Origin: Promethearchaeota archaeon | GTDB lineage: Archaea > Asgardarchaeota > Lokiarchaeia > Sigyniarchaeales > SOKP01 | Reading direction: 5' to 3' | Assembly: GCA_048937405.1 (NCBI GenBank) | Contig: JBHLNF010000004.1 | Span: forward strand, 160,001-224,000 | Length of the DNA stretch: 64,000 nt | Part shown: in pieces, positions 24,649-40,040 of the stretch | How the letters are laid out: each line of letters starts with the position of its first letter | Numbering within the stretch: the first letter of the stretch is position 1 | Position numbers and translations under genes: made by a program | Notes under the pieces: generated by a model | Told to the model about the DNA's origin: nothing | Databases searched by the model: none | What the model saw: only the letters and a program-made list of their open reading frames with translations

Positions 24649-26487
24649 TTATAATAAAGATTGAATAAATGTCTTGAAAATATTATAATCATTGATAAAT
24701 TCATAGGAAAGCACTAAGTTAATAATTTTACATTTGTTCAGTGGAAATATATCTTTTAGATAATCAACAATTTTACCACCTTTGAAAAAAGAATCGTCTG
24801 TAATCAAATTAACAGAATCTCCAATTTTCCTAACTTTAGAGTGAAGGATTGTTTCTATCCCCATTTCATCCGACACAATAATGGTAGGCCTTCCTAAGTA
24901 TGGAATAAAATCTAAATTAAAAATTATCACTTGACCTGGAGCATTATTAATGTTTTTGAAAAATTGTTTTAATGAAGTTTGGACAGTCCTAACCTCATTT
25001 TCATTATAATTCTTTTTGATTGGATAAATAAAATAGGCGATTGATTTTTTTGAGGAATATTTGATATCATTATAGACTCGATCAATGATAGGAAAAATAC
25101 TAAAATCAAAACCGAATAATGATAAAAATGCAATTGTAAAATTAAAATCATTAACTAGGAGATTGTTACTTACATTTCCTCCAATTAGTGAGAAATTTCT
25201 AATTTCATTATTGACATCAGAACTGTATATATTTAATAAATAATACTGAGAAAAAACTAATTGTGATTCTGTTTTTGTTCTGATTTCATCAACCATCATA
25301 TAAACAACATTAAAAATATCTTTGCTAATTTTTTCCTTAAGTTCTGGAATATTCAGATTTTCAATAACAGCATGAGCTTTCGCAGGGCTTTCAATTTCAG
25401 CAAGACTGATGATTGCATCCTTAAAAATTTTATAATCTTGCTTTTTATAATCTGTTTTGAGTAATTTCAATATTTTTTCTATGATCAAATTTAGTACAAC
25501 AATTAATTCAGATCTTATATCTTGTTCTTTCAATTTTTTCGCAATATTGAATAAAATCTGTATTTTTTTAATATCACTTTCAATATAACCAATCAACTTT
25601 AGAGCCAATAGTGGATTAGATTCAATAATTTTGCTATATACTTTGAGTAATAAATTCTCCTTTGATGAGGGATCTTGAATTAGATTTCCAATTTTTAATG
25701 CTTGTTCTGGATTAATTACGACATGATCTTGAGCTAAAAATTCTAATATGTGTAGTTTAACATTTGCATCAGTTATATTATTAATGAATTGTAAAGAGGA
25801 CTCAATATTTTTAATACCGTATGCTCTAATCAAACTATAATATAAGTCAGTTTGATCTTTTTTTTTAGACAGCATTAATGCTAATTCTAAAGCACGTGAG
25901 AGATTGTTAACAGAAAGATATCCTTTTGCTAGATTTTCTAAATATTTATCGATTTCTTCCAAAAGTTTTGAAATTTTTGACCCTGTTGCTTGTAGTGAAT
26001 TATAATCTTCTTTTAATTTTTTCAATTGTTGTTCTGCTTTTTTTATTACATCCTTCTTCATATCTATAATATAATCATCTGGATTAAACAAATCTGAAAT
26101 CTTTTTTTCAAGGAATGAATAATTCTCTAATATTTTTTTAAATTTTCTTTCTTGAATTTCATCTCTTACTTTCTGTACTTTTACAGTATATTCTGTAATC
26201 TTTAACCAATGAGCCTTTATAGTTAATTTTCCAGAACCATCAGAATTAGGTTCTAATTTTAACTCAAGATTTTTTGTTTCTCCAGGACCAAACTCGGTAA
26301 TCTCAGTTAATTCGATGGGATTAACATCTATAGTTAAATTTTCACCCTCGAATTCTAATTTAAAGTTTTCCTTTCTATTCGAATAATTTATTGCTTGAAT
26401 TGAAACAATATTATCAATCCCGGGAATCAATAGATTTTGAGGGAATTTTGTAATGTTTAAAGATATAATTTGATTAGCATTTGACAT
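24649..26487 (-). CDS. Hypothetical protein (beta-rich N-terminus, helical-repeat middle)
   Basis: 612 aa ORF with an alpha-solenoid-like pattern in the centre. Confidence 0.6.
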   Translation of the reverse strand: MSNANQIISLNITKFPQNLLIPGIDNIVSIQAINYSNRKENFKLEFEGENLTIDVNPIELTEITEFGPGETKNLELKLEPNSDGSGKLTIKAHWLKITEYTVKVQKVRDEIQERKFKKILENYSFLEKKISDLFNPDDYIIDMKKDVIKKAEQQLKKLKEDYNSLQATGSKISKLLEEIDKYLENLAKGYLSVNNLSRALELALMLSKKKDQTDLYYSLIRAYGIKNIESSLQFINNITDANVKLHILEFLAQDHVVINPEQALKIGNLIQDPSSKENLLLKVYSKIIESNPLLALKLIGYIESDIKKIQILFNIAKKLKEQDIRSELIVVLNLIIEKILKLLKTDYKKQDYKIFKDAIISLAEIESPAKAHAVIENLNIPELKEKISKDIFNVVYMMVDEIRTKTESQLVFSQYYLLNIYSSDVNNEIRNFSLIGGNVSNNLLVNDFNFTIAFLSLFGFDFSIFPIIDRVYNDIKYSSKKSIAYFIYPIKKNYNENEVRTVQTSLKQFFKNINNAPGQVIIFNLDFIPYLGRPTIIVSDEMGIETILHSKVRKIGDSVNLITDDSFFKGGKIVDYLKDIFPLNKCKIINLVLSYEFINDYNIFKTFIQSLL

Positions 26488-26614: not shown

Positions 26615-27382
26615 TTATTTACCCATTCGGCGATCTCTAGCAATAAAGTCCTTAAGATCCTCAACAACCATTTCTTTATTATAGTCCGGCCAAAATTCTT
26701 TTCGGAATTTAAATTCTGCATAAGAAGCATCCCATAACAAGAATCCTGAGATTCTAGCTCCATCATTCATGCCAGTTCTAATAATATAATCTAAAGGAGG
26801 AAAGTCTTTTGAATAGAGGTGTGATTCAATTAAATCTTTATTAACCTGTTCTGGTTTAATTCCATTACTCACAATTTCCTTCACAGCATCAACAATTTCT
26901 TCATGACCATCATACATAACGCAAAGATTAATGAAATTTTGGTCGTTATCTTTAGTAAGCTCCATTAAATCTTGAAATTTCTCCTTAACATCATTTGGTA
27001 ACATTGAAATCTTTCCAATAATATTAAATTTAACTTTTTCCTCTTTAACGATTGATTCATTTATAATGGTATCGATAGCTTTGATCATTAACTTATAAAT
27101 ATACTCAATTTCTACAGGTTTACGTTTCCTAACATTCTCTAATGATAATATATATAAACTCAAATAATGAATTCCCGCATCAAAAAAATCGAATAATCGC
27201 TTTTTAAGGTTTTCGTAGCCAATTAAATGCCCTAAATTGATTTCGAGATTCCTCTTCTTGGCCCATCTTCTGTTAATGTCTAGAAGTGGAAATCTCTTCT
27301 AAGTACCATCAATGATGAGGCCAATATGTTTGGGTAACCTTTCTTTTTCTCTTAATTTAAGTTCTTCTAGAATAGTTTGCAT
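26615..27382 (-). CDS. uppS: cis-prenyltransferase (undecaprenyl/polyprenyl diphosphate synthase) interrupted by a 30-nt candidate intron; 245 aa when spliced
   Basis: ATG at 27382: MQTILEE...LPKHIGLIIDG[insert with TAG]NRRWAKK...GH...LSLENVRKR...DYIIRTG...RISGFLLW. Confidence 0.9.
27274..27303 (-). other. Candidate BHB-type mRNA intron in uppS (30 nt)
   Basis: CTTAGAAGAGATTTCCACTTCTAGACATTA; 7-bp hairpin; removal restores GAT GGT AAC AGA AGA TGG (DGNRRW). Confidence 0.8.
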
Positions 27383-27797
27383 GAAGTTTTAAAAAAAAAT
27401 TTTACTTTCAATATTAATATGAATATTAAAGGTATTAAATTTTTCTTAAAATTTAAAAATAGCTATATTATTCAAATTTATATTGGATTTTAGTTTTTAA
27501 TTTGTAGAATGATACTTTTCAAGCTTAAATTACTCTTCAAAATAAACTTTTACTTTTTCTTACAGTCTTTTACCGATAGTAAGAATTTGAGTAATTCAAA
27601 CTTCTTACCTTTATTTAAACTGAAATTATATAAAGAAATTCTTATATATAAAATTAAAATAGTATTTTGATAATCAATATAAAAAATTATAAAATCGAAA
27701 AAAAAAGAAATTTGGGATTAAAATTTCCTAATACTACTTAACATGTAATTGACATCACCTTTCAAAATACTGTTAGTATTAACCTAAAATCCTCTAT

Positions 27798-29048
27798 TTA
27801 TTCTAAATTATTATCATCCTGATTGGTGGAGGAATAAATATAAATGCCATCAGTCTTGATATCCTCTGCAATATTCCCTATAATAATATTATAGTTAGCT
27901 TGTGAATTTAAATAAATTCCATAACCATCTCCAATAGGATAAATCTGCTGTATCAAGTTTCCATATATAGTATTATTATTAGTATTTAAATAAATCCCAT
28001 AAGCATCAGAAATATCAGAATAAATGTTAATGATCTTATTACCACTAATCACACTAAAATTTCCAGTAAATATAAAAATCCCATATGTTTCTGATAAATT
28101 AGAATAAATGTTAGTAATTGTATTGCTATTTATAGTATTGAATTCAGAATTATAGCTCATAATCCCATAGCTTCCATTATATCCAAAAATATCATGAATA
28201 ATATTATTACTTAGCGTATTGTTATTTGCATAAGCCAATCCAATTCCTTCAACTAAATCAGAAATAGAATAAAGACCATCAATTATATTATCACTTAACG
28301 TATTAAAATTTGATAAGTACAAATGAATCGCTAATTGGGGGCCTACTCCAATCTGATTTTTGATGATATTTCCATTTAGCGTATTAAAATTGGTATGACT
28401 CAATGTAATACCAGCATAATACATTGATACTATCAAATTATCAAGAATGTGACAAGAATCACTATTTTCTCTTAAAGAAATCCCTATATTCAAATCAGAA
28501 AGGTAACAGTTTTGTATCCAGACATTAGAAGAATTAACTTTAATTCCAAAACCTATCTCTGCACCATTAATCTGAATATTTTTAATATAGACAGGATTAT
28601 CTTTTATATCAGCAATATATATTGCATAATCTAAATCAGATAAAAAATCAGTTGTATCTATTTTTAGATCTTGAATAGTGCACGTTTCAACATTTGTTAT
28701 TCTGAATGCTGTTCTATTACCACCACAATCGACCGTAATGGAACCATTCCCTTGAATAGTGTAAGCACCTCCTTGATCAATATCGATTGTAGCGTTAATA
28801 GTAATATCTTCAGTTATTACAATTATACCTGAGCCAGAACTAATTAAATTAATAGCATTTTGTACTTCTGCACTTGTATTACAATAATAACCAGGAGCAT
28901 CTTCACCATCTAATCCGTCTTGCCCAGGAGGACCTTGATTACCATCTCCAAATAAATCACTAATAAACATAAATGATCCTAGACCAAGTCCCGCTGTTCC
29001 AATAATAATTCCAATAATTCCTATTAATAAACCTTTGTTTTCACCCAT
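27798..29048 (-). CDS. Membrane-anchored right-handed beta-helix (NosD/CASH) protein with a short collagen-like linker
   Basis: N-terminal TM, GNQGPPGQDGLDG triplets, repeated 'GIxL...NTLSxNII' units. Confidence 0.8.
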   Translation of the reverse strand: MGENKGLLIGIIGIIIGTAGLGLGSFMFISDLFGDGNQGPPGQDGLDGEDAPGYYCNTSAEVQNAINLISSGSGIIVITEDITINATIDIDQGGAYTIQGNGSITVDCGGNRTAFRITNVETCTIQDLKIDTTDFLSDLDYAIYIADIKDNPVYIKNIQINGAEIGFGIKVNSSNVWIQNCYLSDLNIGISLRENSDSCHILDNLIVSMYYAGITLSHTNFNTLNGNIIKNQIGVGPQLAIHLYLSNFNTLSDNIIDGLYSISDLVEGIGLAYANNNTLSNNIIHDIFGYNGSYGIMSYNSEFNTINSNTITNIYSNLSETYGIFIFTGNFSVISGNKIINIYSDISDAYGIYLNTNNNTIYGNLIQQIYPIGDGYGIYLNSQANYNIIIGNIAEDIKTDGIYIYSSTNQDDNNLE

Positions 29049-29530
29049 AAATTCATACCTTTATTTAGTAAATTAAAGTAATTATGATTTAGAAGACTCT
29101 ATAATATATAAACATAATAAGAAAATAACTTACATATTTGCAATAGACTTAAATATGTTTTTTTTTAATTTTCTTTAATCATGAGAGAGAGTGTATTCTT
29201 ATATTCAAGTAAATATTAGAAAATAGGTTATAGTTTAGAAAAAATCATATTTTTAGATAGATAGAAATATTAATCTTTTTTAGCAGTTTTCTGCAAATTT
29301 AATTCTTTAATGGAATGAGAGTTATAGAATTAAATTAACTTTTTTTATTAAAAAAAAAGGTTTTTTTATTACTTTTCATATTCGTATAATTCGAAAATAT
29401 GATTCATATCGTTAAGCTTAAATAGCTGTTTACAATAAAATGGTTTAATTAGATAAATAATTAAACAAATAAACATTTATTTTTTTTAACCGTTACCACA
29501 GAAAAATTACTTTACTGGGAAAAACTTATT

Positions 29531-31165
29531 ATGCTTTCAGACGATTACTTATTTTCTGATATTGGAATTGATTCAATTGGTTTTTACGCGCCTAGACATT
29601 ATGTAGCTTTAAAAGACCTAGCATTAAAAAGGAGTGTAGACCCTGAAAAATATGCGAAAGGACTTCTATCAAAAGAGATGCGAGTTGCTGAAGTTGATGA
29701 GGACATTATTTCTTTAGGATTAAAGGCGGGATATAATGCTATATTAAGAGGGGGTATTTCACCAAAGAGTATAGATGCATTATTTGTGGGTACAGAAACA
29801 GAAGTATATGCAGCAAAATCAATTTCAAATATTTTTGCGGAGATGTTAGAAATCTCACCAAATGCGTTAACCCAAGATGTTTACAATGCATGTGCAGGTG
29901 GGACTTTAGCAATTCTTAATGCTATTGCGATGATTGAAAAGGAAATCATCAATAAAGCTCTTGTTATTAGTGCCGACATTTCCTCATATAATTTAGGATC
30001 TCCTGGAGAACCTACTCAAGGTTCGGGAGCAGTGGGACTTGTTATTTCAAAAGATCCCCGCATTGCTACTTTCTCTAAACGATTTGGAAAAGTATCCGGT
30101 AATGTTAACGACTTCTTTAGACCTCCAAATGACAAAAATGCAAGAGCATTTGGAAGTTATTCTCAAGAAACCTATATTGATTTTCAATTAAAAGCGTATG
30201 ATAACCTACTTGAAAATGCAGGAGATTTTCATGCTGATTTTTATACATTTCACGCTCCTTTTTCAAAATTGCCATTAAAAATAATGCAACAAATCATATT
30301 AAAGCGATGGATAAAGCATATAAGTGATTTACCTAAATTTGAAAAAAATAGATTTAGATCCTCCATTCTTAAAAAATTGGATTCATTCTTACATGATGTT
30401 ACCGTATTACCAGAATATCTTTATCTAAAATTAAATGAAAGAGGATTTTCCTCAGCAACACTAGAACGTCTTTCAAATTGGGTGAATACAAATATAAAAG
30501 CAAGAGTTCTTCCTCAATTAAGAGTACCAATGCATTTCGGCAATATGTATAATGCCAGTATCTGGGCACAGATTATTTTACTTCTTGAGAATTATGCTCA
30601 TGCTGGTGATACATTTTATTTTGGATCTTATGGTTCAGGTGCAACTTGTATTTCTGGACTTTTAAAAGTTAAAGAGAGTTTTAATGAAATAGTTCAAAAT
30701 GGACCTTTTATAAATGATTTTATTCATTTGAAGAAAAAGAAATCTGTATTAGAGTATGAGTTAGCAAAAAACGGTGATGTAAAACCGATAGTTTTATTAG
30801 GTCGTATTAGAGAGCATGAACAAAACAATGATAGAGGTTTTACCTTACATTTTTGTGATGAGGGATGTATCATACCAAACATAAAGGGATTAGATCATTG
30901 TCCTAAAGGTCACTCTGGATATCATGAACGATTCTTCCCTCTTTTTGCTAAATTGGCATCTGAACCTGTTGCTCATAATAACATTACTGATTTGAGGTAT
31001 CTGAATAAAGGATTAGTAAGAGTGGCAAACAATGTAAGTAAGGGGAATTCTTTAGAATATGAAATTAGGAGAGTTGAACTGGAATATGAGGAAAATCTCA
31101 ATGCAAAAGGTCTTTTAAACTGGACGCCTTTCTATATTAATCTCCCAAATCACCACGTTTATTGA
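29531..31165 (+). CDS. HMG-CoA synthase with internal insertion and C-terminal extension
   Basis: VGTET, NACAGGT (catalytic Cys), GEPTQGSGAV, FHAPF, GNMYNAS, SYGSG. Confidence 0.92.
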   Translation: MLSDDYLFSDIGIDSIGFYAPRHYVALKDLALKRSVDPEKYAKGLLSKEMRVAEVDEDIISLGLKAGYNAILRGGISPKSIDALFVGTETEVYAAKSISNIFAEMLEISPNALTQDVYNACAGGTLAILNAIAMIEKEIINKALVISADISSYNLGSPGEPTQGSGAVGLVISKDPRIATFSKRFGKVSGNVNDFFRPPNDKNARAFGSYSQETYIDFQLKAYDNLLENAGDFHADFYTFHAPFSKLPLKIMQQIILKRWIKHISDLPKFEKNRFRSSILKKLDSFLHDVTVLPEYLYLKLNERGFSSATLERLSNWVNTNIKARVLPQLRVPMHFGNMYNASIWAQIILLLENYAHAGDTFYFGSYGSGATCISGLLKVKESFNEIVQNGPFINDFIHLKKKKSVLEYELAKNGDVKPIVLLGRIREHEQNNDRGFTLHFCDEGCIIPNIKGLDHCPKGHSGYHERFFPLFAKLASEPVAHNNITDLRYLNKGLVRVANNVSKGNSLEYEIRRVELEYEENLNAKGLLNWTPFYINLPNHHVY

Positions 31166-31347
31166 TTTTTTAAATTAAAAGTGAATTTTCATTTAAAAAC
31201 TTAGAATTCTCCTAAAAATTGTTTTATAAAAATCGCATACTAACTTCTATACTTAAAATAACTAAAAACTAAGAAAATAAAATAGAATATGGATAAACTT
31301 TTTAATTTTTATAAAAATGAATAAAATAATTCAAACAATTAAAAATC

Positions 31348-32559
31348 ATGATGGAAAAACCAATATCATATGCTCTAGAGAGCAAATTAAAAGAAGATTA
31401 CAATGAAATTTTACAATATTTGTTAGATAAGGATTATATTATACAAAATCTTCCTTCTGATTTATCTGCTAAGAAAAATCAAGGTGAAACCTATACTTTA
31501 GCATATCCAATTCAAGGCATATTAAAATATCATGGAATCGCAAATGAAGAACACCGAATTTCTTATTTTCCAAGTATTTCTTTAAATAATGATTGTTCAT
31601 ATACAATTACGTATTTAAAATTTGATGAAAATTTAAAAGAGGATCTAGCTTTTATAAATGGAAAACCAACTTTTGGGGAAGTTCTTGAAAGAATTAAATT
31701 CTCTTTAAGTGCAATTCGTAGATATTCTAAAATAAAGACTAAAGCAATTCTAATATCTCGAAACTTTCTAAATACCAGTAAAGAAGGTCCAATGGGTAAA
31801 GGACTTGGAACTTCAGCTTCAGGTTCATCTGCCTTAGCTTTAGCAGCTATATCTGTCTTATACAATAATGATCCCCTTTTTTTAAAAAACAAACGATTAT
31901 TAAGTATTTATTCTCGTTATTTATCAGGTTCTGGTTGTCGTAGTGCTTCGGGAGGATTTGCTTTATGGTTGAGTTATCCTGACATTAATTCACTCGATAG
32001 TTTCGCAATTAGATTAGATAGAAAAGAACATCGTGATTTTATTAACAATATTTCCCTTATTACAATCCCTATACAATCTGATTTAAGGACGAATCAAGTT
32101 CATAAAATCGCCCCAAAATCTCCTTTTTTTCCAGTATGGTTAGAACAAAGAAAAAAATTAGTATTTGAATTTTTTGAAGCTTTAAATGAACACGATTTAA
32201 ATAGAATAGGAGAATTAGCAGAATATGATACTATGTGTTTACATTCAGTTACAATGACAGCACAAAATAAACACAATATCATTGCTTGGGAGCCTGATAC
32301 ATTAAAAATCATGCAGAAGATCCAAGAATTACGAATGAATGATGGTTATAACGTCTATTATTCAATTGATACGGGCCCATCTTTAGTTTTATTAACTTTA
32401 GAAAACGAAAAAAAAGAAATTATTAATGAATTAAAATCCTTTATTCCAAAATATGATTTTATAGAGGGGAAAATAGGAGGATCTCCTATGATAGTTAGTC
32501 CAAAATCATTTGAAGCAAAAAAATTAAAATCAGATATAGAAAAGTTTAATAGAATTTAA
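31348..32559 (+). CDS. mvaD: Phosphomevalonate/diphosphomevalonate decarboxylase (GHMP), haloarchaeal-type
   Basis: AYPIQGILKYHG, GLGTSASG, SGSGCRS, YSIDTGPS. Confidence 0.85.
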   Translation: MMEKPISYALESKLKEDYNEILQYLLDKDYIIQNLPSDLSAKKNQGETYTLAYPIQGILKYHGIANEEHRISYFPSISLNNDCSYTITYLKFDENLKEDLAFINGKPTFGEVLERIKFSLSAIRRYSKIKTKAILISRNFLNTSKEGPMGKGLGTSASGSSALALAAISVLYNNDPLFLKNKRLLSIYSRYLSGSGCRSASGGFALWLSYPDINSLDSFAIRLDRKEHRDFINNISLITIPIQSDLRTNQVHKIAPKSPFFPVWLEQRKKLVFEFFEALNEHDLNRIGELAEYDTMCLHSVTMTAQNKHNIIAWEPDTLKIMQKIQELRMNDGYNVYYSIDTGPSLVLLTLENEKKEIINELKSFIPKYDFIEGKIGGSPMIVSPKSFEAKKLKSDIEKFNRI

Positions 32560-32575
32560 AAGAGTGGTTTAAATT

Positions 32576-33856
32576 ATGGAAGAATTCCATTCAGATATTT
32601 CTGGTTTTTATAAATTATCATTTGAAGAACGTCAACAAACTATATCTAAATTAGTAAATCTTACTCAAGATGAAATTAACATTTTACAAAATTTAGGATA
32701 TTTTACCTCAAGTCAAATTGATAATTTCATTGAAAATGTTATTGGGAGTTATCAATTACCATTTGGTTTAGCTTTCAACTTTAAAATAAATAATAAAGAT
32801 TATATTATACCTATGGTTATTGAAGAACCTTCAGTTGTAGCAGCTGCATCAAATGCTGCTAAATTTGCTAGAAAATGTGGAGGTTTTCATTCAGAAGAGG
32901 TGAAATCTATAATGATTTCACAAATTCAGATTACTCAATTACGTGAAATCAATATTGCAAAGAAAAATATTATTGATCATAAGGATCAAATTTTAAAAAT
33001 TGCTAATGAACAAGATCCATTTCTGAATGAATTAGGTGGGGGTGCAATTGATCTTGAAATTAGAGAATTGGAGACTCGTAAGGGGAAAATGTTGATTTTG
33101 CATTTATTAGTTGATGTATTAGATGCCATGGGTGCTAATGTTGTAAATACAATGGCAGAGGCAATTAGTCCTTATATTGAAGAACTTGTTGATGGAAAAA
33201 TTTATCTACGGATAGTTTCTAACCTTGCTTCACACAGAATAGCAAAAAGCAAGGCTATATTTGATAAGGATTTATTAGGTGGAGAACAAGTTGTTGAGGG
33301 TATAATGAACGCATTTGAATTTGCTGCTGCAGATCCATTTAGAGCAACAACACACAATAAAGGAATTATGAACGGAATTGTAGCATTAACGTTAGCCACT
33401 GGAAATGATACACGTGCTATTGAAGCAGGAGCACATGCATATGCGTCATTGAAGGGAAAGTATTCACCATTAACTAACTTTCGAGTTGATTCAGATGGTA
33501 ATTTAGTTGGAGAGATAGAAATTCCACTAGCACTTGGTATCATTGGAGGGATGACGAAGATTCACCCGATGGCACAATTGGCATTGAAAATTTTAAATGC
33601 TAAAAGTGCTAACGAACTCTCTCAAGTTGGTGCGGCTCTCGGATTAGCACAAAATGTTGCGGCATTAAGAGCACTTGCAGCAGAAGGTATCCAAAAAGGA
33701 CATATGAACCTTCATTCTCGAAATATAGCTAAAGCAGCAGGTGTGCCTGATGAGTTAATAGAGCTAGTTGCTAAGAAAATGGTGGAAGAAAGAAAAATCA
33801 GAATTGATTATGCAAAAGAAATTTTAAAAAAAATAAATGAGGGTAAAAACCTTTAG
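32576..33856 (+). CDS. mvaA: HMG-CoA reductase, class II
   Basis: IENVIG, EEPSVVAA, DAMGANVVN, RATTHNKG, GIQKGHMNLH. Confidence 0.95.
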   Translation: MEEFHSDISGFYKLSFEERQQTISKLVNLTQDEINILQNLGYFTSSQIDNFIENVIGSYQLPFGLAFNFKINNKDYIIPMVIEEPSVVAAASNAAKFARKCGGFHSEEVKSIMISQIQITQLREINIAKKNIIDHKDQILKIANEQDPFLNELGGGAIDLEIRELETRKGKMLILHLLVDVLDAMGANVVNTMAEAISPYIEELVDGKIYLRIVSNLASHRIAKSKAIFDKDLLGGEQVVEGIMNAFEFAAADPFRATTHNKGIMNGIVALTLATGNDTRAIEAGAHAYASLKGKYSPLTNFRVDSDGNLVGEIEIPLALGIIGGMTKIHPMAQLALKILNAKSANELSQVGAALGLAQNVAALRALAAEGIQKGHMNLHSRNIAKAAGVPDELIELVAKKMVEERKIRIDYAKEILKKINEGKNL

Positions 33857-33946
33857 TTTTATATTAAGTGGTTCTGTAACTCCTCTAAGAAAAACTACAA
33901 ATGTTATTCAAATGTTTGAGATAAATATTAAAGGAAGATAAATATT

Positions 33947-35248
33947 ATGGGATTTAGAGAATATATCGATAAAATTGATAAGAATGGATTACTCAAAAAG
34001 GTAGATATTGAAGTTTCAAAAAGATTGGAAATAGCTGGGATCTTAAAAGAGATGGAACCAACTCCAATACTATTTAATAATATTAAAGAATCTGAATATC
34101 GTGTTGTTGGCAATGTATTTTGTACTAAAGATGTAATTGCCTCTTATTTTGGTGTGACTCCCGCAGATCTTATACCAATGCTATCGAAAGCTATTAATAA
34201 TTATTTAGAACCAGAAATAATATCTGATGCACCATGTCAGGAAATTATTGAGTCTAATGTGGATTTAGATAAACTTCCTATCTTATTTCATTGTGAGCGG
34301 GATGGCGGAAATTACATTAGTTCTGCTGTAGTAGTTACAAGAGATCCAGATTATGGTCAAAACTTAGATTTTCATAGAGCAATGCAATTTTCAAAAGATA
34401 AATTTGCCACTCGAATAGTGAAGGGACGTCATTTTTCCAAATTTTTAGAAAAAAATGGAGAATTAGATACTGCCTTTTGCATAGGAAACACTCCCAATAT
34501 TTTAATTGCTGGAGCAACTTCCGTAGACATTGGTGTTAATGAATTACATATTGCTAATGCTCTAGAGCCAATCAAAGTAGTAAAAGCAAACTCAGTTGAC
34601 CTATTAATACCTGCTGAATCAGAATTTGTATTAGAGGGACGTGTATATTTGGAAGAGAGACATTCAGAAGGTCCGTTTGTCGATCTTACTGAGACTTATG
34701 ATGTAATACGAGAAGAACCTATTTTTGAAATAAAAAGAATTACTCATAGAAAAGATGCGATTTGGCAGGCGCTCCTCCCAGGTGCTCTTGAACATAAAAT
34801 CTTAATGGGAATGCCTAGAGAACCCACTATTTTTAATAAAGTAAATGAACAGGGGGTTAAATGTTTAGACGTAAACATTAGTCCAGGTGGATCTTCTTGG
34901 CTTCATGCTATAGTACAAATTGATAAGAAATCAGAAGAGGATGGAAAAAAAGCTATAGAAGGCACTTTTACGGGTCATACTAGCTGTAAGCACGCTTTTA
35001 TTGTTGATAAAGACATTAATATATATGATCCCTTATCTGTCGAATGGGCGATGGCAACTCGTTTTCAAGGAGATACAAGAATGATAATTAAAGATAAAGA
35101 ACCTGGGAGTAGTTTAGATCCTAGCGCCGAACCAGGAACAAAAATGACAACGAAAATAGGGTTTGATTTAACCAAACCACTTGTAGTAAAAGGAAAGAGT
35201 TTTGAGATTGCTGAATTTCCAAAAGTAGATATTAAAAAATATTTTTAA
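33947..35248 (+). CDS. UbiD-family decarboxylase; probable anhydromevalonate phosphate decarboxylase
   Basis: EGPFVDLTETYD, VEWAMATRFQ, GSSLDPS; abuts the AcnX genes within the MVA cluster. Confidence 0.88.
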   Translation: MGFREYIDKIDKNGLLKKVDIEVSKRLEIAGILKEMEPTPILFNNIKESEYRVVGNVFCTKDVIASYFGVTPADLIPMLSKAINNYLEPEIISDAPCQEIIESNVDLDKLPILFHCERDGGNYISSAVVVTRDPDYGQNLDFHRAMQFSKDKFATRIVKGRHFSKFLEKNGELDTAFCIGNTPNILIAGATSVDIGVNELHIANALEPIKVVKANSVDLLIPAESEFVLEGRVYLEERHSEGPFVDLTETYDVIREEPIFEIKRITHRKDAIWQALLPGALEHKILMGMPREPTIFNKVNEQGVKCLDVNISPGGSSWLHAIVQIDKKSEEDGKKAIEGTFTGHTSCKHAFIVDKDINIYDPLSVEWAMATRFQGDTRMIIKDKEPGSSLDPSAEPGTKMTTKIGFDLTKPLVVKGKSFEIAEFPKVDIKKYF

Positions 35249-35249
35249 A

Positions 35250-36458
35250 ATGAGGAAAGAAAAAATGAAATTAACTTCAGAAGAACAAAACATATTAGAT
35301 GGTAAATTTGGAAAAGCTGCCAAAAAGTCAATGGAAATATTAGTAACATTAGGAGACATATTCGATGCTGAATCAATGGTTGATGTATTTGGCGTTCAAA
35401 TAGCAGGAGTTTCATATGCAAATCTAGATGAGGCAGGTTTGGAATTTTTAAGTGAAATGGCTGAAGATGGCAAGGTTCGAGTCCTAACTACTTTAAATCC
35501 TGCTGGAATGGATCGAGAGAATTGGCAGGCTTTAGGTATTTCTGAAGAATTTGCTAAAAATCAAAATCGAGCTATTGATGCATTTGCTAAAATGGGTATA
35601 ATTACTACTTGTTCTTGTACACCTTACTTAATTGGTAATACTCCACACTATGGTCAACATCTTGCGTGGGCTGAAAGTAGTGCCGTATGTTATGCTAATT
35701 CAGTAATTGGTGCACGAACCAACCGTGAAGGAGGTCCAAGCGCTTTAGCATCAGCTATTACAGGAAAAACTCCTAGATATGGTTATCATTTAGATGAAAA
35801 TCGTCATGGGGAAGTTTTATTTGAAGTTAATGCTAAAGTTAAAGGAACAGATGAATTTGGTGTTTTAGGAAAAATAATTGGGGATAAATTGGTAGAATTA
35901 GGAAAGAAAATTCCTTATATAGAAGGTATTCCTGAAGCGACAGTTGAGGAACTCAAATCGTTTTGTGCTTCTGTTGCAACATATGGCGGAACTGCTTTAT
36001 TCCATATGGAGGGAGTTACGCCAGAGTATAATGATTATCCTAAACCGACTGATATCACATTTGAAATCAACCAAAACGACCTAGATAAAACACGCTTAGA
36101 ACTTATTGATGATGATCTTGAGATAGATTTTGTAAGTATAGGATGTCCACATGCTTCAATTCACGAAATTGAAAGAATTGCCAGGCTATTAAAAGGAAAG
36201 AAAGTGAAAAAAGAATTTTGGATTACTACTGCCCGTCCTACAAAAAGAATCGCTGATGAAGCTGGTTATTCAAAAATAATTGAAGAAGCAGGAGCGAAAT
36301 TTGCAGCAGATACATGTTGTGTTGTTGCTCCAATTAAGGGTCGGTTTAAAGGAATAATGGTAGATTCAGCGAAAGCTTGTTATTATGGGCGCGCAAAAAA
36401 CCAATTTAAAGTAAAAATAGGATCAATTGAGGAATGTATTGAGGAGGCAATAAAATGA
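35250..36458 (+). CDS. Aconitase X catalytic subunit; probable phosphomevalonate dehydratase large subunit
   Basis: TTLNPAG, CSCTPY, WAESSAV..ANSVIGARTNREGG, IGCPHAS, DTC, SAKACYY. Confidence 0.9.
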   Translation: MRKEKMKLTSEEQNILDGKFGKAAKKSMEILVTLGDIFDAESMVDVFGVQIAGVSYANLDEAGLEFLSEMAEDGKVRVLTTLNPAGMDRENWQALGISEEFAKNQNRAIDAFAKMGIITTCSCTPYLIGNTPHYGQHLAWAESSAVCYANSVIGARTNREGGPSALASAITGKTPRYGYHLDENRHGEVLFEVNAKVKGTDEFGVLGKIIGDKLVELGKKIPYIEGIPEATVEELKSFCASVATYGGTALFHMEGVTPEYNDYPKPTDITFEINQNDLDKTRLELIDDDLEIDFVSIGCPHASIHEIERIARLLKGKKVKKEFWITTARPTKRIADEAGYSKIIEEAGAKFAADTCCVVAPIKGRFKGIMVDSAKACYYGRAKNQFKVKIGSIEECIEEAIK

Positions 36459-36847
36459 AGTTAAAAGGAAGAAAAATCTATAAAGGAACTGTTGAAGCAG
36501 AGGCGATTGTCACCAAAGATGGAATTTCTTTTTATGGAGGGGTAGATCCCGATACAGGAAAAGTAGTGGAAGTTGGACATGAGCTAGAAGGGCAATCAAT
36601 AACAGGAAAAGTTTTGGTTTTTCCAACAGGGAAAGGATCAACAGTAGGATCATATACTATGTATCGGATGAAAAAAAATAATACAGCTCCCGCAGCAATT
36701 ATAAATAAACAAATTGATACAATTATAGCAGTAGGTTGTATTATTAGTGAAATTCCTTGTGTCGATAAAATTAATATAGATGAGATAAAGACTGGTCAAA
36801 AACTAATTGTTAATGGAACAGAAGGAACAATAGAATTAATCGATTAA
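36455..36847 (+). CDS. Aconitase X swivel subunit (DUF126); phosphomevalonate dehydratase small subunit
   Basis: ISFYGGVDP.TG, GKGSTVGSY; ATGA overlap with the large subunit. Confidence 0.92.
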   Translation: MKLKGRKIYKGTVEAEAIVTKDGISFYGGVDPDTGKVVEVGHELEGQSITGKVLVFPTGKGSTVGSYTMYRMKKNNTAPAAIINKQIDTIIAVGCIISEIPCVDKINIDEIKTGQKLIVNGTEGTIELID

Positions 36848-37167
36848 TTTAATATACATTCTAATTAAATCATTAGCAATAAGCCACTCAGATATTACGT
36901 TCTACACATCTTAAGTTTATAGATATTAAATATCCTCAAAATTAAATATAATTTTAGATTCCATTGAAAATACTGAAAACACAAATCTTATAAAACTGTA
37001 AATGATACTTACATAACAATTGAGAGTTTTTTATAATCCCACTCTAAAATGTTTTATTTCTTCTCCTACTTTTTAAATAAAGTAAAATTTGATCAAATTA
37101 AGTTATTTAAATAATTTTGAATATTTTCAAATTTTAATAAATCAAACGACTTTAATTGGTGAAAAAA

Positions 37168-38134
37168 TTGGGTATTGGAAAAGGATATGGAAAGACCATA
37201 CTTTTTGGCGAAATTTAATTCTTAATTCAAGAATAAACGCAATCATTTTGTAGTTTATGGTCTTCCTGCGATAGCATCAGCATTAGGCTCTTATACAACG
37301 GCAGAAGTTAATATAGTTAAAGGTAATGGTTGGACAGTTGATGATCAAAGAATAGCAACACCGGGTTACAAAAAACAGAAATATAGTGAGGCTATAGGGT
37401 CAATTAAAAATGTTATTGAATTTTTAAAAATTGATACTACTAATCAAAAACTTGAAATAACATTTTCAGGCGATCTAATTGCCGCAAGTGGAGTAGGTGC
37501 ATCAGCAGCTCAAAGTACATCACTTTCCCGCGCAATAAATGATGCATTTAATCTTAATTTAAATGATGAGAAGATTAATGAAGCGGCTTATGAAGGAGAG
37601 AAAGCTTATCATGGTACACCATCTGGAATTGACAATACAGCTTCAACTTATGGAGGTTTAATTTGGTTTGTTAAGAATTTAACTGGAGGAAAAAATACTA
37701 TGGAACTATTGCAATCACCAAAGAAGATGCCCTTGGTAATTTTAAATACAGGAATAACAGCCTCTACAACAGAAGTAGTAACTGATGTTAGACGCTTAAA
37801 AGAGGAATCTCCTAAAAAGTATGAAAAAATCTTTAATCAATATGAAAATCTAGCTATAAAAGCGAAAAATGCTTTACTTGAGGGAGATATTGTCAAGATA
37901 GGTGAATTAATGAATCAAAATCATAAAATGTTACAAGACATAACAGTTTCTGGAGAAATTAATGATAAACTTGTCGAAATCGCACTTCAAAATGGAGCAC
38001 TAGGTGCTAAAATGACTGGAACGGGAAGAGGGGGATTAGTAATTGCTTTAGTAGAAACTGAAAATATACAAGAAAAAATTGCGGAAGCTGTTGAAAAAGA
38101 AGGATACAATGCCTGGAAAACCATGATAGGATGA
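37168..38134 (+). CDS. mvk: Mevalonate kinase interrupted by a 31-nt candidate intron; 311 aa when spliced
   Basis: TTG after GGTGA: MGIGKGYGKTILFGE[insert]HFVVYGLPAIA...ASGVGASAA...HGTPSGIDN...GAKMTGTGRGG; frame is open from 37244 to 38134. Confidence 0.9.
37213..37243 (+). other. Candidate BHB-type mRNA intron in mvk (31 nt)
   Basis: ATTTAATTCTTAATTCAAGAATAAACGCAAT; hairpin; removal gives GGC GAA CAT TTT (GEHF) and repairs the frame. Confidence 0.82.
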
Positions 38135-38147
38135 GTATGAGGAAAAA

Positions 38148-40040
38148 TTGAAAAAGAACAATGAAATAATTCTGCTTAAATTAGGTGGAAGTTTACTAAC
38201 TGATAAGAATAAGCCATTTTCACTTAGAGAAGAAATTTTAGAAAAATGTCTCAATCAGATAATTGACAGTAAGAAATCAATAATTTTGATTCATGGTGGC
38301 GGGTCATTTGGTCACCCTCTTGCTAAAAAATATAAAATTTCGCAGGGTTTGAATAAGTCTATTGAAAACCAAATAATAGGGCTTTCAAAAACTCATGATG
38401 CCATGAATCAATTAAATTCCGTTATTATAAAAAAATTTCTTGAAAAGGAATATCCTGCAATTTCAATCCAACCTTCAAGCATTTTTATGCAAGGTTTTAA
38501 TGAAATTAATATTAAATCAATAGAACCTATTGAAAAATTGCTTGATCTTGGAGTAATACCCGTCCTTTATGGAGATATTCTTCTCAGTCAAGATTATTCT
38601 TTTTCAATTTTATCTGGAGATTACATTATTTTGAAATTATGTGAGAATATTCAAAATTTTAATATTTCAAAAGTAATATTTGCGATTGAGGAAGATGGAA
38701 TATTTATTAATGAGAATGGTAATAAAAAATTAGCTTTAAAATTGACACTTAGCGATTTATCTACTATAAAATTAGCGAAATTAGGACAAAAGATTGATGT
38801 AACAGGGGGAATAAGAGGAAAATTAAAACAAATTGAAGAAATCTTAAAATTAAATATACCTGTTCAAATTATTAATGGTATCAAAAATAAAAATATATTG
38901 AAAGCATTAACAAACCAATATATCGAATGTACGAATATTGAAATATCATCAAATAAATTAGCTGAAAGTCAAATATATAATAGAAAAATTGAACATATTA
39001 AGATACCTTTAGAACACAACGTTCAACATGCAATTAATTATTTTGATGATATTACTTTAATTCATCATCCTCTCCCAGAATTTGAATTAGAGGAGACTAA
39101 TATATCTGTAGATTTCTTTAAAAAACAAATATCTGCTCCAATTTGTATTTCAGCAATCACCGGTGGTCATCAGATTTCTAAAGCTATCAACAATATTTTA
39201 GCAAATGCTGCCAAAACAGAAAATATAGTACTGGGAGTCGGTAGTCAGAGAATAGGATTAGAAGATCCTTCCACAATTGAATCATTCAGCGTAATCCGCG
39301 ATGTAGCACCCAATATTCCTGTAATAGGAAATTTAGGGATAGGGCAAGTATGTGATCCCAATTTTGATATTGATAATTTCAATAAATGCATTGATATGAT
39401 TGAAGCGGATGCTATGGCCATACACTTTAATGCTTTACATGAACTTGTTCAAAAAGAAGGCAACATTTCCTTTAAAAATTTTGAAGAAAGATTCAAAGAA
39501 ATCAGAAAAAAAATAAGTATTCCAATTATAGCTAAAGAAGTTGGATCAGGATTTAATAAAGAATTAGCTATAAAGCTTGATTTATTGGGATTTGATGGAT
39601 TTGATGTTGGCGGAGCAGGTGGTACAAGTTTTGCGGCAATTGAGTCGATACGAGATGATTATAGCTTTGAAGTATTTACTAGAAAGATTGCAGATACTTT
39701 TCGTGAATGGGGAATTCCTACTCCTGTAAGTATATCAAATGTAAGAGACGTATCTAAGAAATTAATAATTGCAACGGGAGGGTTACGGTCTGGAGTTGAT
39801 ATCGCCAAATCAATTGTGTTAGGTGCTGATATTGGAGGTTTTGCCTATAAGTTCTTAAAGACGGCATGGCAAGATTATAAAAATAATTCTTTCATTCACA
39901 CAATTAAAGAAATCAAAACTCTAAAACATGAATTAAGATCCTCTATGTGGTTGATGAATGTTAAGAATATTAACAGTCTCAGTTGTAATAGTGATAAAAG
40001 AATCTTGGTTGGTAAATTATATCAGTGGTTAAATCAATGA
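38148..40040 (+). CDS. Isopentenyl phosphate kinase / type 2 isopentenyl-diphosphate isomerase fusion
   Basis: N-terminal LKLGGS, HGGGSFGH, SGD, DVTGGI (IPK); C-terminal RKIEH, SAITGG, GVGSQR, KEVGSG, GAGGTS, WGIPT (IDI-2). Confidence 0.93.
   Translation: MKKNNEIILLKLGGSLLTDKNKPFSLREEILEKCLNQIIDSKKSIILIHGGGSFGHPLAKKYKISQGLNKSIENQIIGLSKTHDAMNQLNSVIIKKFLEKEYPAISIQPSSIFMQGFNEINIKSIEPIEKLLDLGVIPVLYGDILLSQDYSFSILSGDYIILKLCENIQNFNISKVIFAIEEDGIFINENGNKKLALKLTLSDLSTIKLAKLGQKIDVTGGIRGKLKQIEEILKLNIPVQIINGIKNKNILKALTNQYIECTNIEISSNKLAESQIYNRKIEHIKIPLEHNVQHAINYFDDITLIHHPLPEFELEETNISVDFFKKQISAPICISAITGGHQISKAINNILANAAKTENIVLGVGSQRIGLEDPSTIESFSVIRDVAPNIPVIGNLGIGQVCDPNFDIDNFNKCIDMIEADAMAIHFNALHELVQKEGNISFKNFEERFKEIRKKISIPIIAKEVGSGFNKELAIKLDLLGFDGFDVGGAGGTSFAAIESIRDDYSFEVFTRKIADTFREWGIPTPVSISNVRDVSKKLIIATGGLRSGVDIAKSIVLGADIGGFAYKFLKTAWQDYKNNSFIHTIKEIKTLKHELRSSMWLMNVKNINSLSCNSDKRILVGKLYQWLNQ

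What the first reader, a model, noticed from the sequence alone, without database searches (positions are those of the whole stretch)
26615..38134. Candidate system: splicing-gated isoprenoid/lipid biosynthesis using tRNA-splicing machinery
Seen: both mRNA inserts occur in one pathway (the kinase step of the MVA route and the lipid-carrier synthase). Both lie in the first conserved motif within 30 codons of the start and put a stop one sense codon into the insert, giving unspliced products of 16 and 27 aa. Both have an imperfect central helix with one terminal G.A. Established: eukaryotic HAC1/XBP1 mRNAs are switched on by non-spliceosomal cleavage and tRNA-ligase joining, and they regulate membrane biogenesis. 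Inference (speculative): sub-optimal BHB introns could couple lipid synthesis to EndA/RtcB activity in an Asgard archaeon. The alternative is neutral or selfish introns that persist in conserved motifs because imprecise loss is lethal.
Basis: inference. Interest (0 to 1): 0.85.

Follow-up and report, generated by a model that had tools for sequence, protein, structure and literature searches.

The report
tRNA-type mini-introns in two isoprenoid genes
Two lipid-precursor genes of a Loki-type Asgard archaeon (mevalonate kinase and the polyprenyl carrier synthase) are each interrupted by a real ~30-base tRNA-style intron, but these belong to a wider set of such introns scattered over unrelated genes, and nothing I could test indicates a switch dedicated to lipid synthesis.

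Summary
Observation confirmed. Mevalonate kinase (MVK) carries a 31-nt insert (37213-37243, +). The cis-prenyltransferase (UPPS) carries a 30-nt insert (27274-27303, -). Both fold as bulge-helix-bulge (BHB) motifs. Cutting after the second bulge nucleotide restores GE|HFVVYG and IIDG|NRRWA.

Within the genus the inserts are present in 13/19 (MVK) and 7/23 (UPPS) orthologues, and precisely absent from the rest. About 89-90% of helix cells pair, against 24-52% in slid controls, with 6 and 4 compensatory pairs. A sister strain differs by 1 of 30 intron bases while exon dS is 0.73 and dN/dS is 0.08. The genome encodes a catalytic EndA, a His-less EndA paralogue, RtcB and Archease.

The "lipid gate" reading is not supported:
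- I verified ten more 29-31-nt BHB introns in this genome. Hosts include PFK, Elp3, methylmalonyl-CoA mutase, AMP/thymidine phosphorylase, a histone, Rpo10 and rubredoxin. A relative has one in aEF-2.
- The two introns are not co-inherited, and each was lost precisely in sister species.
- Eleven other isoprenoid/lipid genes are uninterrupted.
- A one-mismatch central helix occurs in 6 of the 12 introns.
- Nominal enrichment (P 0.001-0.004) disappears once the post-hoc choice of category is allowed for.

No RNA data were available, so regulated splicing is untested. The scan had already noted BHB mRNA introns elsewhere in this genome.

The parts
37168..37212 (+). Mevalonate kinase exon 1 (15 codons, MGIGKGYGKTILFGE, TTG start)
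   Evidence: Sequence and translation. The start lines up with the ATG/TTG of 19 orthologues.
37213..37243 (+). MVK BHB intron, 31 nt, phase 0. It has stops in the exon-1 and exon-2 frames.
   Evidence: Precisely absent from 6 same-genus orthologues (gaa|cat contiguous) and present in 13. Covariation.
37207..37210 (+). MVK central-helix exon strand GGCG. It pairs with intron CGCA at 37238-37241. The 3-nt bulges are 37211-37213 (AA|A) and 37242-37244 (AU|C).
   Evidence: Hand geometry. In G003 the exon GGUG pairs with intron CACU, a compensatory change.
37214..37237 (+). MVK inner hairpin (UUU.AUUCUU / AAGAAUAAA)
   Evidence: Five of 9 pairs change on both sides across 12 distinct sequences.
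37193..37200 (+). MVK distal exon-exon helix AGACCAUA, pairing with UAUGGUCU at 37256-37263
   Evidence: RNA fold. 94.8% of cells pair. These exon bases barely vary at synonymous sites in intron-bearing genomes but vary in intronless ones.
37244..38134 (+). Mevalonate kinase exon 2 (296 codons plus stop)
   Evidence: GHMP_kinases_N and _C. 73-84% identical to same-genus orthologues, with no stops.
27304..27382 (-). UPPS (cis-prenyltransferase) exon 1, MQTILEELKLREKERLPKHIGLIIDG plus 1 nt
   Evidence: Aligns with intact orthologues.
27274..27303 (-). UPPS BHB intron, 30 nt by the cutting rule. The same product results from 27275-27304 or 27276-27305.
   Evidence: Precisely absent from 16 same-genus orthologues and from other families, present in 7. 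Covariation. It differs by 1 nt from a sister strain while exon dS is 0.73.
27306..27309 (-). UPPS central-helix exon strand AUGG. It pairs with intron ACAU at 27276-27279. The bulges are 27303-27305 (UA|C) and 27273-27275 (UA|A). The outer helix is UUG 27310-27312 with CAG 27270-27272.
   Evidence: In G010 the exon GAC pairs with an intron G, and an outer-helix U-A becomes G-C.
26615..27273 (-). UPPS exon 2 (NRRWAKK... to the stop)
   Evidence: PF01255 profile positions 5-219, E 6e-55. It is the only PF01255 gene in the genome. dN/dS is 0.08 against the sister strain.
29531..36847 (+). Context: uninterrupted mevalonate-pathway genes. HMG-CoA synthase 29531-31165, MVD-like 31348-32559, HMG-CoA reductase 32576-33856, UbiD-type decarboxylase 33947-35248, AcnX large subunit 35250-36458 and small subunit 36455-36847.
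   Evidence: Pfam hits over whole ORFs.
38148..40040 (+). Context: uninterrupted fusion of isopentenyl-phosphate kinase with a type-2 IPP isomerase-like domain
   Evidence: AA_kinase plus FMN_dh hits in one 630-aa ORF.

Best explanation
The two inserts are ordinary archaeal bulge-helix-bulge (BHB) introns sitting in mRNA.

Mechanism. After transcription, the exon and intron sequence around each insert folds into a 4-position helix flanked by two 3-nt bulges. The tRNA-splicing endonuclease, here apparently a two-subunit alpha-beta type, cuts after the second nucleotide of each bulge. RtcB, with Archease, joins the exons. This restores the GEH motif of mevalonate kinase and the DGNRRW motif of the prenyltransferase.

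Context. They are two members of a genome-wide population of 29-31-nt micro-introns that also interrupt unrelated housekeeping genes and tRNAs in this Asgard genus. The population is polymorphic between species through precise loss. Their presence in two isoprenoid genes 10 kb apart is best read as coincidence helped by the clustering of isoprenoid genes, not as a lipid-specific gate.

Position. Their place in N-terminal glycine-rich motifs probably reflects RNA needs. In a 27-30% GC genome, conserved GGN-rich codons supply the G/C-rich exon half of the central helix.

Basis. Shown: the structure, the covariation, the precise absence in relatives, purifying selection on exon and intron, presence of the machinery, and the spread over genes. 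Inferred: that splicing happens, and that it is constitutive.
For: - Geometry and restored motifs.
- Precise presence/absence at the predicted junctions in 19 and 23 same-genus orthologues.
- Compensatory changes and controls.
- Single-copy genes.
- Exon dN/dS 0.08 with dS 0.73, while the 30-nt intron differs at one base that keeps a G.U pair.
- EndA alpha-like and His-less paralogues, RtcB and Archease. Asgard EndA is reported as the (alpha-beta)2 type with the L1 loop (PMC5829648).
- Ten other BHB introns verified here, in methylmalonyl-CoA mutase, Elp3, PFK, AMP/thymidine phosphorylase, a histone, an MBL hydrolase, an Fe-S-like protein, rubredoxin, Rpo10 and a 92-aa protein. Relative G023 has one in aEF-2.
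- No co-inheritance of the two introns, and nested losses on the gene trees.
- Other lipid genes are intact.
- The exon halves of the 12 central helices are 28/48 G+C, against about 0.27-0.30 for the window.
Against: - There is no RNA evidence, so splicing and its constitutive nature are inferred.
- A motif-free census against one relative found 9 inserts in about 1660 orthologous segments, and 2 of them are in isoprenoid genes. That is nominally P 0.001-0.004, so a real bias cannot be fully excluded.
- Four of 8 hosts of at least 200 aa carry the intron within the first 30 codons (0.72 expected, P 0.003). This is a pattern that might have functional meaning.
- The MVK outer helix next to the bulge is weak (one pair). 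Efficient cleavage therefore depends on a broad-specificity enzyme, which has not been measured.
Confidence: 0.8

Rival explanations
1. Splicing-gated lipid synthesis. Deliberately sub-optimal BHB introns in MVK and UPPS make isoprenoid and carrier-lipid output depend on EndA/RtcB activity, in analogy to HAC1/XBP1.
For: Both genes are single copy and cannot give active enzyme unspliced. Both introns lie within 30 codons of the start, and unspliced products are 16 and 27 aa. Enrichment among census inserts is nominal, P 0.001-0.004. CarS lies next to Archease and RtcB on contig C25.
Against: - The same kind of intron sits in at least ten unrelated genes.
- By chance, 0.2-0.37 same-category pairs are expected among 9 inserts.
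- The introns are not co-inherited, and each was lost precisely in sister species that keep the same pathway.
- The rest of the pathway is intron-free.
- The G.A mismatch is replaced by G.U in 4 of 13 MVK orthologues, and half of all introns here have one mismatch.
- The early stop is lost in a sister strain.
- EndA has no known sensor. No Ire1 RNase domain was found, though the control for that search was silent.
Confidence: 0.06
2. The inserts are inactivating lesions. MVK and UPPS are pseudogenes, or assembly errors, and are not spliced.
For: Each unspliced frame ends after 16 or 27 aa. Annotation pipelines call truncated proteins of 220-227 aa.
Against: - These are the only MVK and UPPS genes in a genome scored 100% complete.
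- The same inserts recur in 13 and 7 independently assembled species, with intact downstream frames.
- dN/dS is 0.08.
- The insert itself is far more conserved than synonymous sites and keeps its helices by compensatory change.
Confidence: 0.02
3. The inserts are dealt with during translation (stop-codon read-through or pyrrolysine, frameshifting, or ribosome hopping) and not by RNA splicing.
For: The UPPS insert is in frame, and in one sister strain it is open, giving a predicted 255-aa protein with a 10-residue insertion.
Against: - The stop is TAG, TAA or a later TGA in different species, so a single recoding rule does not fit.
- A 10-residue insertion would split the DGNRRW diphosphate-binding motif. 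That this motif binds diphosphate is established knowledge of cis-prenyltransferases.
- In MVK the exon-1 frame stops at intron codon 2, before the exon-2 frame opens downstream of its own stop, so a simple +1 shift cannot work.
- There are no matching take-off and landing codons.
- The covarying BHB geometry is left unexplained.
Confidence: 0.02

Closest known systems
BHB intron in the cbf5 pre-mRNA of Crenarchaeota (Watanabe et al. 2002; Yoshinari et al. 2006; Yokobori et al. 2009, PMC2738675)
   Same: A tRNA-type BHB intron inside a protein-coding gene. It is removed by a hetero-oligomeric splicing endonuclease and shows gain and loss among related species.
   Different: The hosts are different genes (MVK, UPPS and at least ten others, against one gene), the lineage is different (Asgard/Promethearchaeota), and the length is uniformly tiny at 29-31 nt. 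Splicing here is inferred, not demonstrated.
Non-canonical BHB introns of Asgard tRNA genes (PMC11291895; bioRxiv 10.64898/2026.10.13.758758)
   Same: Same motif, same presumed enzyme, and the same lineage-level abundance and turnover. tRNA T-arm introns of about 30 nt are polymorphic between G000 and G023 as well.
   Different: The host is an mRNA, so removal must be exact to the nucleotide to keep the reading frame, and unspliced RNA can be translated into truncated peptides.
HAC1/XBP1 unconventional mRNA splicing
   Same: Non-spliceosomal cleavage and tRNA-ligase (RtcB/Trl1) joining of an mRNA. Removal of the intron changes what is translated.
   Different: Cleavage there is by the stress sensor Ire1 at paired stem-loops, not by the tRNA endonuclease at a BHB, and regulation is the defining feature. 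Here no sensor, no Ire1-type RNase and no evidence of regulation was found.
EndA cleavage of a BHB in an mRNA 5' UTR in Haloferax volcanii (PMC7714728)
   Same: Archaeal splicing endonuclease acting on an mRNA.
   Different: That site is in an untranslated region. I saw only the title and abstract of this paper, so the detail comes from my own knowledge.

Membership tests
Archaeal BHB (tRNA-type) intron | [quoted passage not shown] | tested here: met
   MVK: GGCG-AA|A...CGCA-AU|C. UPPS: AUGG-UA|C...ACAU-UA|A. Each has three standard pairs plus one G.A. The register is kept in 13 and 7 orthologues.
Archaeal BHB (tRNA-type) intron | Cutting after the second bulge nucleotide on both sides gives a functional product | tested here: met
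   It restores ...ILFGE|HFVVYG... and ...IIDG|NRRWAKK..., identical in register to intronless orthologues.
Archaeal BHB (tRNA-type) intron | Flanking helices (h and h') that hold the motif | tested here: met
   UPPS: a 3-bp outer helix plus further exon-exon pairs, and a 7-bp inner helix. MVK: a 9-pair inner hairpin, only one pair next to the bulge, and an 8-bp distal exon-exon helix, so a relaxed form.
Archaeal BHB (tRNA-type) intron | Structure maintained by selection (covariation) | tested here: met
   Six and 4 pairs change on both sides. 0 of 500 shuffles reach the covariation score. Slid controls pair at 24-52%, against 89-90% observed.
Archaeal BHB (tRNA-type) intron | Splicing endonuclease and RNA ligase encoded by the host | tested here: met
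   EndA paralogue with Tyr/His/Lys (C27). EndA paralogue with His replaced by Ser (C8). RtcB and Archease.
Archaeal BHB (tRNA-type) intron | Excision and exon ligation observed in RNA | not testable with these tools
   No RNA run was listed for this sequence, so read laying could not be used.
HAC1/XBP1-type regulated unconventional splicing | Cleavage by an Ire1-type sensor kinase/RNase | tested here: inconclusive
   PF06479 gave no hit in G000, but the control genomes were also silent.
HAC1/XBP1-type regulated unconventional splicing | Splice sites in paired 7-nt stem-loops, not a BHB | tested here: not met
   Both junctions fit BHB geometry with 3-nt bulges.
HAC1/XBP1-type regulated unconventional splicing | Splicing is conditional on a cellular signal | not testable with these tools
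   No transcriptome data.
   Two of 12 verified introns are in isoprenoid genes. The other ten hosts span glycolysis, tRNA modification, chromatin, transcription, nucleotide and carbon metabolism. The nominal P of 0.001-0.004 does not survive the look-elsewhere correction.
   Genomes with both introns: 6. MVK intron only: 7. UPPS intron only: 1. Neither: 5.

The most novel reading that the evidence does not exclude
The ~30-nt BHB micro-introns, which sit disproportionately in the first 30 codons of housekeeping genes, act as a general throttle. Ribosomes following the polymerase abort cheaply on unspliced mRNA, so output of MVK, UPPS, PFK and others tracks the free capacity of the EndA/RtcB tRNA-splicing system. 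In that way, isoprenoid and glycan-carrier synthesis would be tied to tRNA maturation in an Asgard archaeon.
Probability: 0.06. Interest if true: 0.85.

Novelty: new member of a known kind. Interest (0 to 1): 0.55.

Why it matters
In the papers I could search, BHB introns inside archaeal coding sequences are documented only for cbf5 of Crenarchaeota. Finding them in single-copy essential genes of an Asgard genus, as a polymorphic population with clean covariation and precise losses, gives a tractable natural system. The hosts here include MVK, UPPS, Rpo10 and a histone, and aEF-2 in a relative.

It lets one ask how protein-coding genes acquire, tolerate and lose introns in the closest prokaryotic relatives of eukaryotes, where transcription and translation are thought to be coupled.

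There is also a practical consequence. Gene callers truncate these genes or read through them, so metabolic reconstructions of these MAGs can wrongly score MVK or UPPS as damaged. The specific idea of a lipid-synthesis gate would be important if true, but the evidence here speaks against it.

Tried and rejected
1. De novo genome-wide scan for BHB geometry plus ORF restoration, with an identity-pair decoy, later adding a 4th-order coding-potential filter. Real candidates never exceeded the decoys and showed no peak at 29-31 nt. I abandoned it as uninformative.

2. Matching BHB/ORF candidates between G000 and G023 by junction peptides. It gave 2338 groups, mostly off-frame noise conserved by descent. 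After strict filters only the MBL-hydrolase intron stood out.

3. Rfam and ARAGORN on the window: no hits.

4. RNA evidence: no RNA holder was listed for 36900-38400.

5. Search for a spliced-form UPPS protein in the 5.8-billion-protein set. The closest relatives are truncated calls of 220-227 aa or a read-through of 255 aa. No junction-spanning product of this lineage was seen.

6. Ire1 KEN-domain search. There was no hit, but the controls were silent, so it is inconclusive.

7. Pyrrolysine or read-through, +1 frameshift and ribosome hopping were considered and rejected on sequence grounds.

8. Common origin of the introns. Most pairs are no more alike than shuffles. MVK against the MBL-hydrolase intron scores 12 (null maximum 6), and two other pairs score 8-9. 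This may reflect the shared A/U-rich architecture as much as homology, and I did not pursue it.

9. Sites C7:233238, C7:453117, C7:314145 and C22:59961 from the DNA gap census have BHB-like folds but no convincing reading frame. I did not count them.

10. The rnhB lead from earlier notes was not re-checked.

Full report
**What is in the window.** The window has 27-30% GC. Between 29.5 and 40 kb on the + strand it carries a mevalonate-pathway cluster:
- HMG-CoA synthase
- an MVD-like gene
- HMG-CoA reductase
- a UbiD-type decarboxylase
- both AcnX subunits
- mevalonate kinase (MVK)
- a fusion of isopentenyl-phosphate kinase with an IDI2-like domain

The only cis-prenyltransferase (UPPS, PF01255) of the genome lies 10 kb upstream on the - strand. 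Names attached to close homologues place the organism in Promethearchaeota/Lokiarchaeia.

MVK starts at TTG 37168, the conserved start position in orthologues. It reads MGIGKGYGKTILFGE and then meets a 31-nt insert (37213-37243) whose second codon is TAA. It resumes in another frame at HFVVYG and stays open to 38134, with GHMP-kinase domains.

UPPS starts at ATG 27382 and reads ...HIGLIIDG. It then meets a 30-nt in-frame insert whose second codon is TAG, and resumes at NRRWAKK.

**Both junctions fit the archaeal BHB rule.**
- For MVK, exon GGCG (37207-37210) pairs with intron CGCA (37238-37241), with one G.A. The bulges are AA|A and AU|C, and an inner hairpin follows. An 8-bp exon-exon helix (37193-37200 with 37256-37263) closes the whole.
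- For UPPS, exon AUGG pairs with intron ACAU, with one G.A. The bulges are UA|C and UA|A. There is a 7-bp inner helix and a 3-bp outer helix that continues into further exon-exon pairs.
- Cutting after the second bulge nucleotide gives exactly the conserved GE|H and DG|NRRW junctions.

**Comparative evidence.**
- Among same-genus genomes, 13 of 19 MVK orthologues carry a 30-31-nt insert at this position. Six read ggNgaa|catttt without interruption.
- Seven of 23 UPPS orthologues carry the 30-nt insert. The rest, and all other families sampled, read gatggN|aatcgt.
- On the alignments, 89.7% (MVK) and 89.1% (UPPS) of helix cells form standard pairs, against 24-52% when partners are slid by 1-3 columns. 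Six and four pairs change on both sides. No shuffle of 500 reaches the covariation score.
- Examples include exon GGU-G with intron CACU in G003, and the synonymous exon change GAU to GAC matched by an intron A to G in G010.
- In a sister strain (GCA_019058245.1) the UPPS exon 2 has dS 0.73 and dN/dS 0.08. Its 30-nt insert differs at a single base, TAG to TGG, which keeps a G.U pair.
- The genes are therefore under purifying selection, the insert is constrained as RNA, and the early stop is not what is being kept.
- G000 has one MVK and one UPPS.

**Machinery.**
- One EndA-family protein (contig C27, 197 aa) keeps the Tyr/His/Lys triad and is closest to the Aeropyrum pernix enzyme chain 3p1z_B.
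- A second (C8, 200 aa) is closest to the M. jannaschii enzyme but has Ser at the catalytic His.
- This is what an (alpha-beta)2 enzyme looks like. It agrees with the published assignment of Asgard EndA to that broad-specificity type (PMC5829648).
- RtcB and Archease are present and adjacent.

**Is it a lipid-specific system?** I fetched the whole genome of a same-genus relative that lacks both introns (G023, 2.27 Mb). I then ran a motif-free census. Its ORFs were aligned to G000 and re-aligned locally, looking for query-contiguous pieces separated by extra DNA. The census recovered MVK and UPPS as positive controls.

It found nine G000 inserts of 29-31 nt in about 1660 orthologous segments. 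A DNA-level gap census shows a peak at 28-31 nt in both directions.

With leads from earlier notes that I re-tested in the sequence, I verified twelve protein-coding BHB introns in G000:
- MVK and UPPS
- methylmalonyl-CoA mutase (RLFSGHG|TPEETN)
- Elp3 (GHKVD|KIELIIMGGTF)
- phosphofructokinase (GILTGGG|DCPGLN)
- an AMP/thymidine-phosphorylase-family protein (DKHS|TGGVPG)
- an archaeal histone
- an MBL-fold hydrolase (this one is shared with G023)
- an Fe-S-like protein
- rubredoxin
- Rpo10
- a 92-aa protein

G023 in turn has a 30-nt BHB insert in aEF-2 that G000 lacks, and tRNA T-arm introns are polymorphic too.

**Further points against a gate.**
- The two introns are not co-inherited. Six genomes have both, seven have MVK only, one has UPPS only, and five have neither.
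- On the gene trees, intronless MVK genes (G008, G010, G023) are nested inside the intron-bearing clade. This implies repeated precise loss. The UPPS intron is patchy in the same way.
- Species without the introns keep the same pathway.
- All other isoprenoid/lipid genes checked are uninterrupted.
- A one-mismatch central helix is found in six of the twelve introns.
- The MVK G.A is G.U in four of thirteen orthologues.

**Statistics.** Two of nine census inserts fall in a class of 9-17 genes out of 1660, which is nominally P 0.001-0.004. But the category was chosen after seeing the pair. Among nine inserts, 0.2-0.37 same-category pairs are expected by chance for categories of that size.

Other close pairs exist and were also flagged as 'systems' by first-stage notes: rubredoxin with the Fe-S protein at 6 kb, and Elp3 with PFK at 33 kb. 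Isoprenoid genes are physically clustered here, so linkage is a sufficient explanation.

**Why conserved N-terminal motifs?** This part is inference. The exon half of the central helix is G/C-rich (28 of 48 bases) in a genome of about 28% GC. It usually lies on glycine or other constrained codons. Such motifs offer a stable docking sequence that cannot drift.

Four of eight hosts of at least 200 aa have the intron in the first 30 codons (0.72 expected, P 0.003, post hoc). This could reflect 3'-biased cDNA-mediated loss, or the lower cost of short abortive peptides. It is the one pattern that keeps a general, not lipid-specific, regulatory reading alive.

**Limits.**
- No RNA data could be obtained. 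Splicing itself and its constitutive nature are inferred.
- The census covers only genes shared with one relative, and ORFs of at least 70 aa.
- My de novo scans failed.

**Literature.** Papers searchable here report BHB mRNA introns only for cbf5, and report abundant tRNA introns in Asgard genomes. None reports BHB introns in Asgard protein-coding genes. This scan had already noted such introns elsewhere in this genome.

**Verdict.** These are real introns, new members of a known kind. The proposed lipid gate is unsupported.

Noticed in passing
window 38148-40040 (+): Isopentenyl-phosphate kinase (AA_kinase) fused in one 630-aa ORF to an FMN-dependent, type-2 IPP-isomerase-like domain.
   Followed up: no
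window 31348-36847 (+): The cluster holds both an MVD-like (diphosphomevalonate-decarboxylase-family) gene and the AcnX plus UbiD pair of the archaeal anhydromevalonate route. Which route is used is unclear.
   Followed up: no
G000 contig C25:58428-61519 (L178, L179): CDP-archaeol synthase (CarS-like), Archease and RtcB are direct neighbours. It is a curious lipid/ligase adjacency. I did not check whether it is conserved.
   Followed up: no
G000 contig C23:696-944 (-) (L182): An archaeal histone gene (CBFD_NFYB_HMF) is interrupted by a 30-nt BHB intron with a 10-bp inner helix. The intron is absent from G023.
   Followed up: partly
G023 1381867-1384149 (+) (L131): The elongation factor 2 gene of the relative carries a 30-nt BHB insert (..QMTDSD|DEEQERGITI..) that G000 lacks.
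   Followed up: partly
G000 C25:127289, C7:230533, C3:4899: Inserts of about 30-35 nt in tRNA T-arm-like sequence (GGTTCGAA...), present in G000 and absent in G023. tRNA introns turn over like the mRNA ones.
   Followed up: no
proteins P0003, P0023, P0038 (220-225 aa) and P0004 (255 aa): Public annotations of intron-bearing UPPS genes are either N-terminally truncated or read through the intron as a 10-residue insertion. This is a systematic annotation artefact for these MAGs.
   Followed up: yes
12 intron hosts in G000: All inserts are 29-31 nt. Four of 8 hosts of at least 200 aa carry theirs within the first 30 codons (0.72 expected). The exon half of the central helix is 58% G+C in a genome of about 28% GC.
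   Followed up: partly
window 26615-27273 (-), UPPS tree: G000's UPPS sits on a long terminal branch (0.27, against a median of 0.07), although dN/dS to its sister strain is 0.08.
   Followed up: partly
window 24649-26487 (-): A 612-aa ORF lies just downstream of UPPS. A 612-residue gene with no Pfam hit on record sits in the same position in the sister strain (L188). I did not scan the window ORF against Pfam.
   Followed up: no
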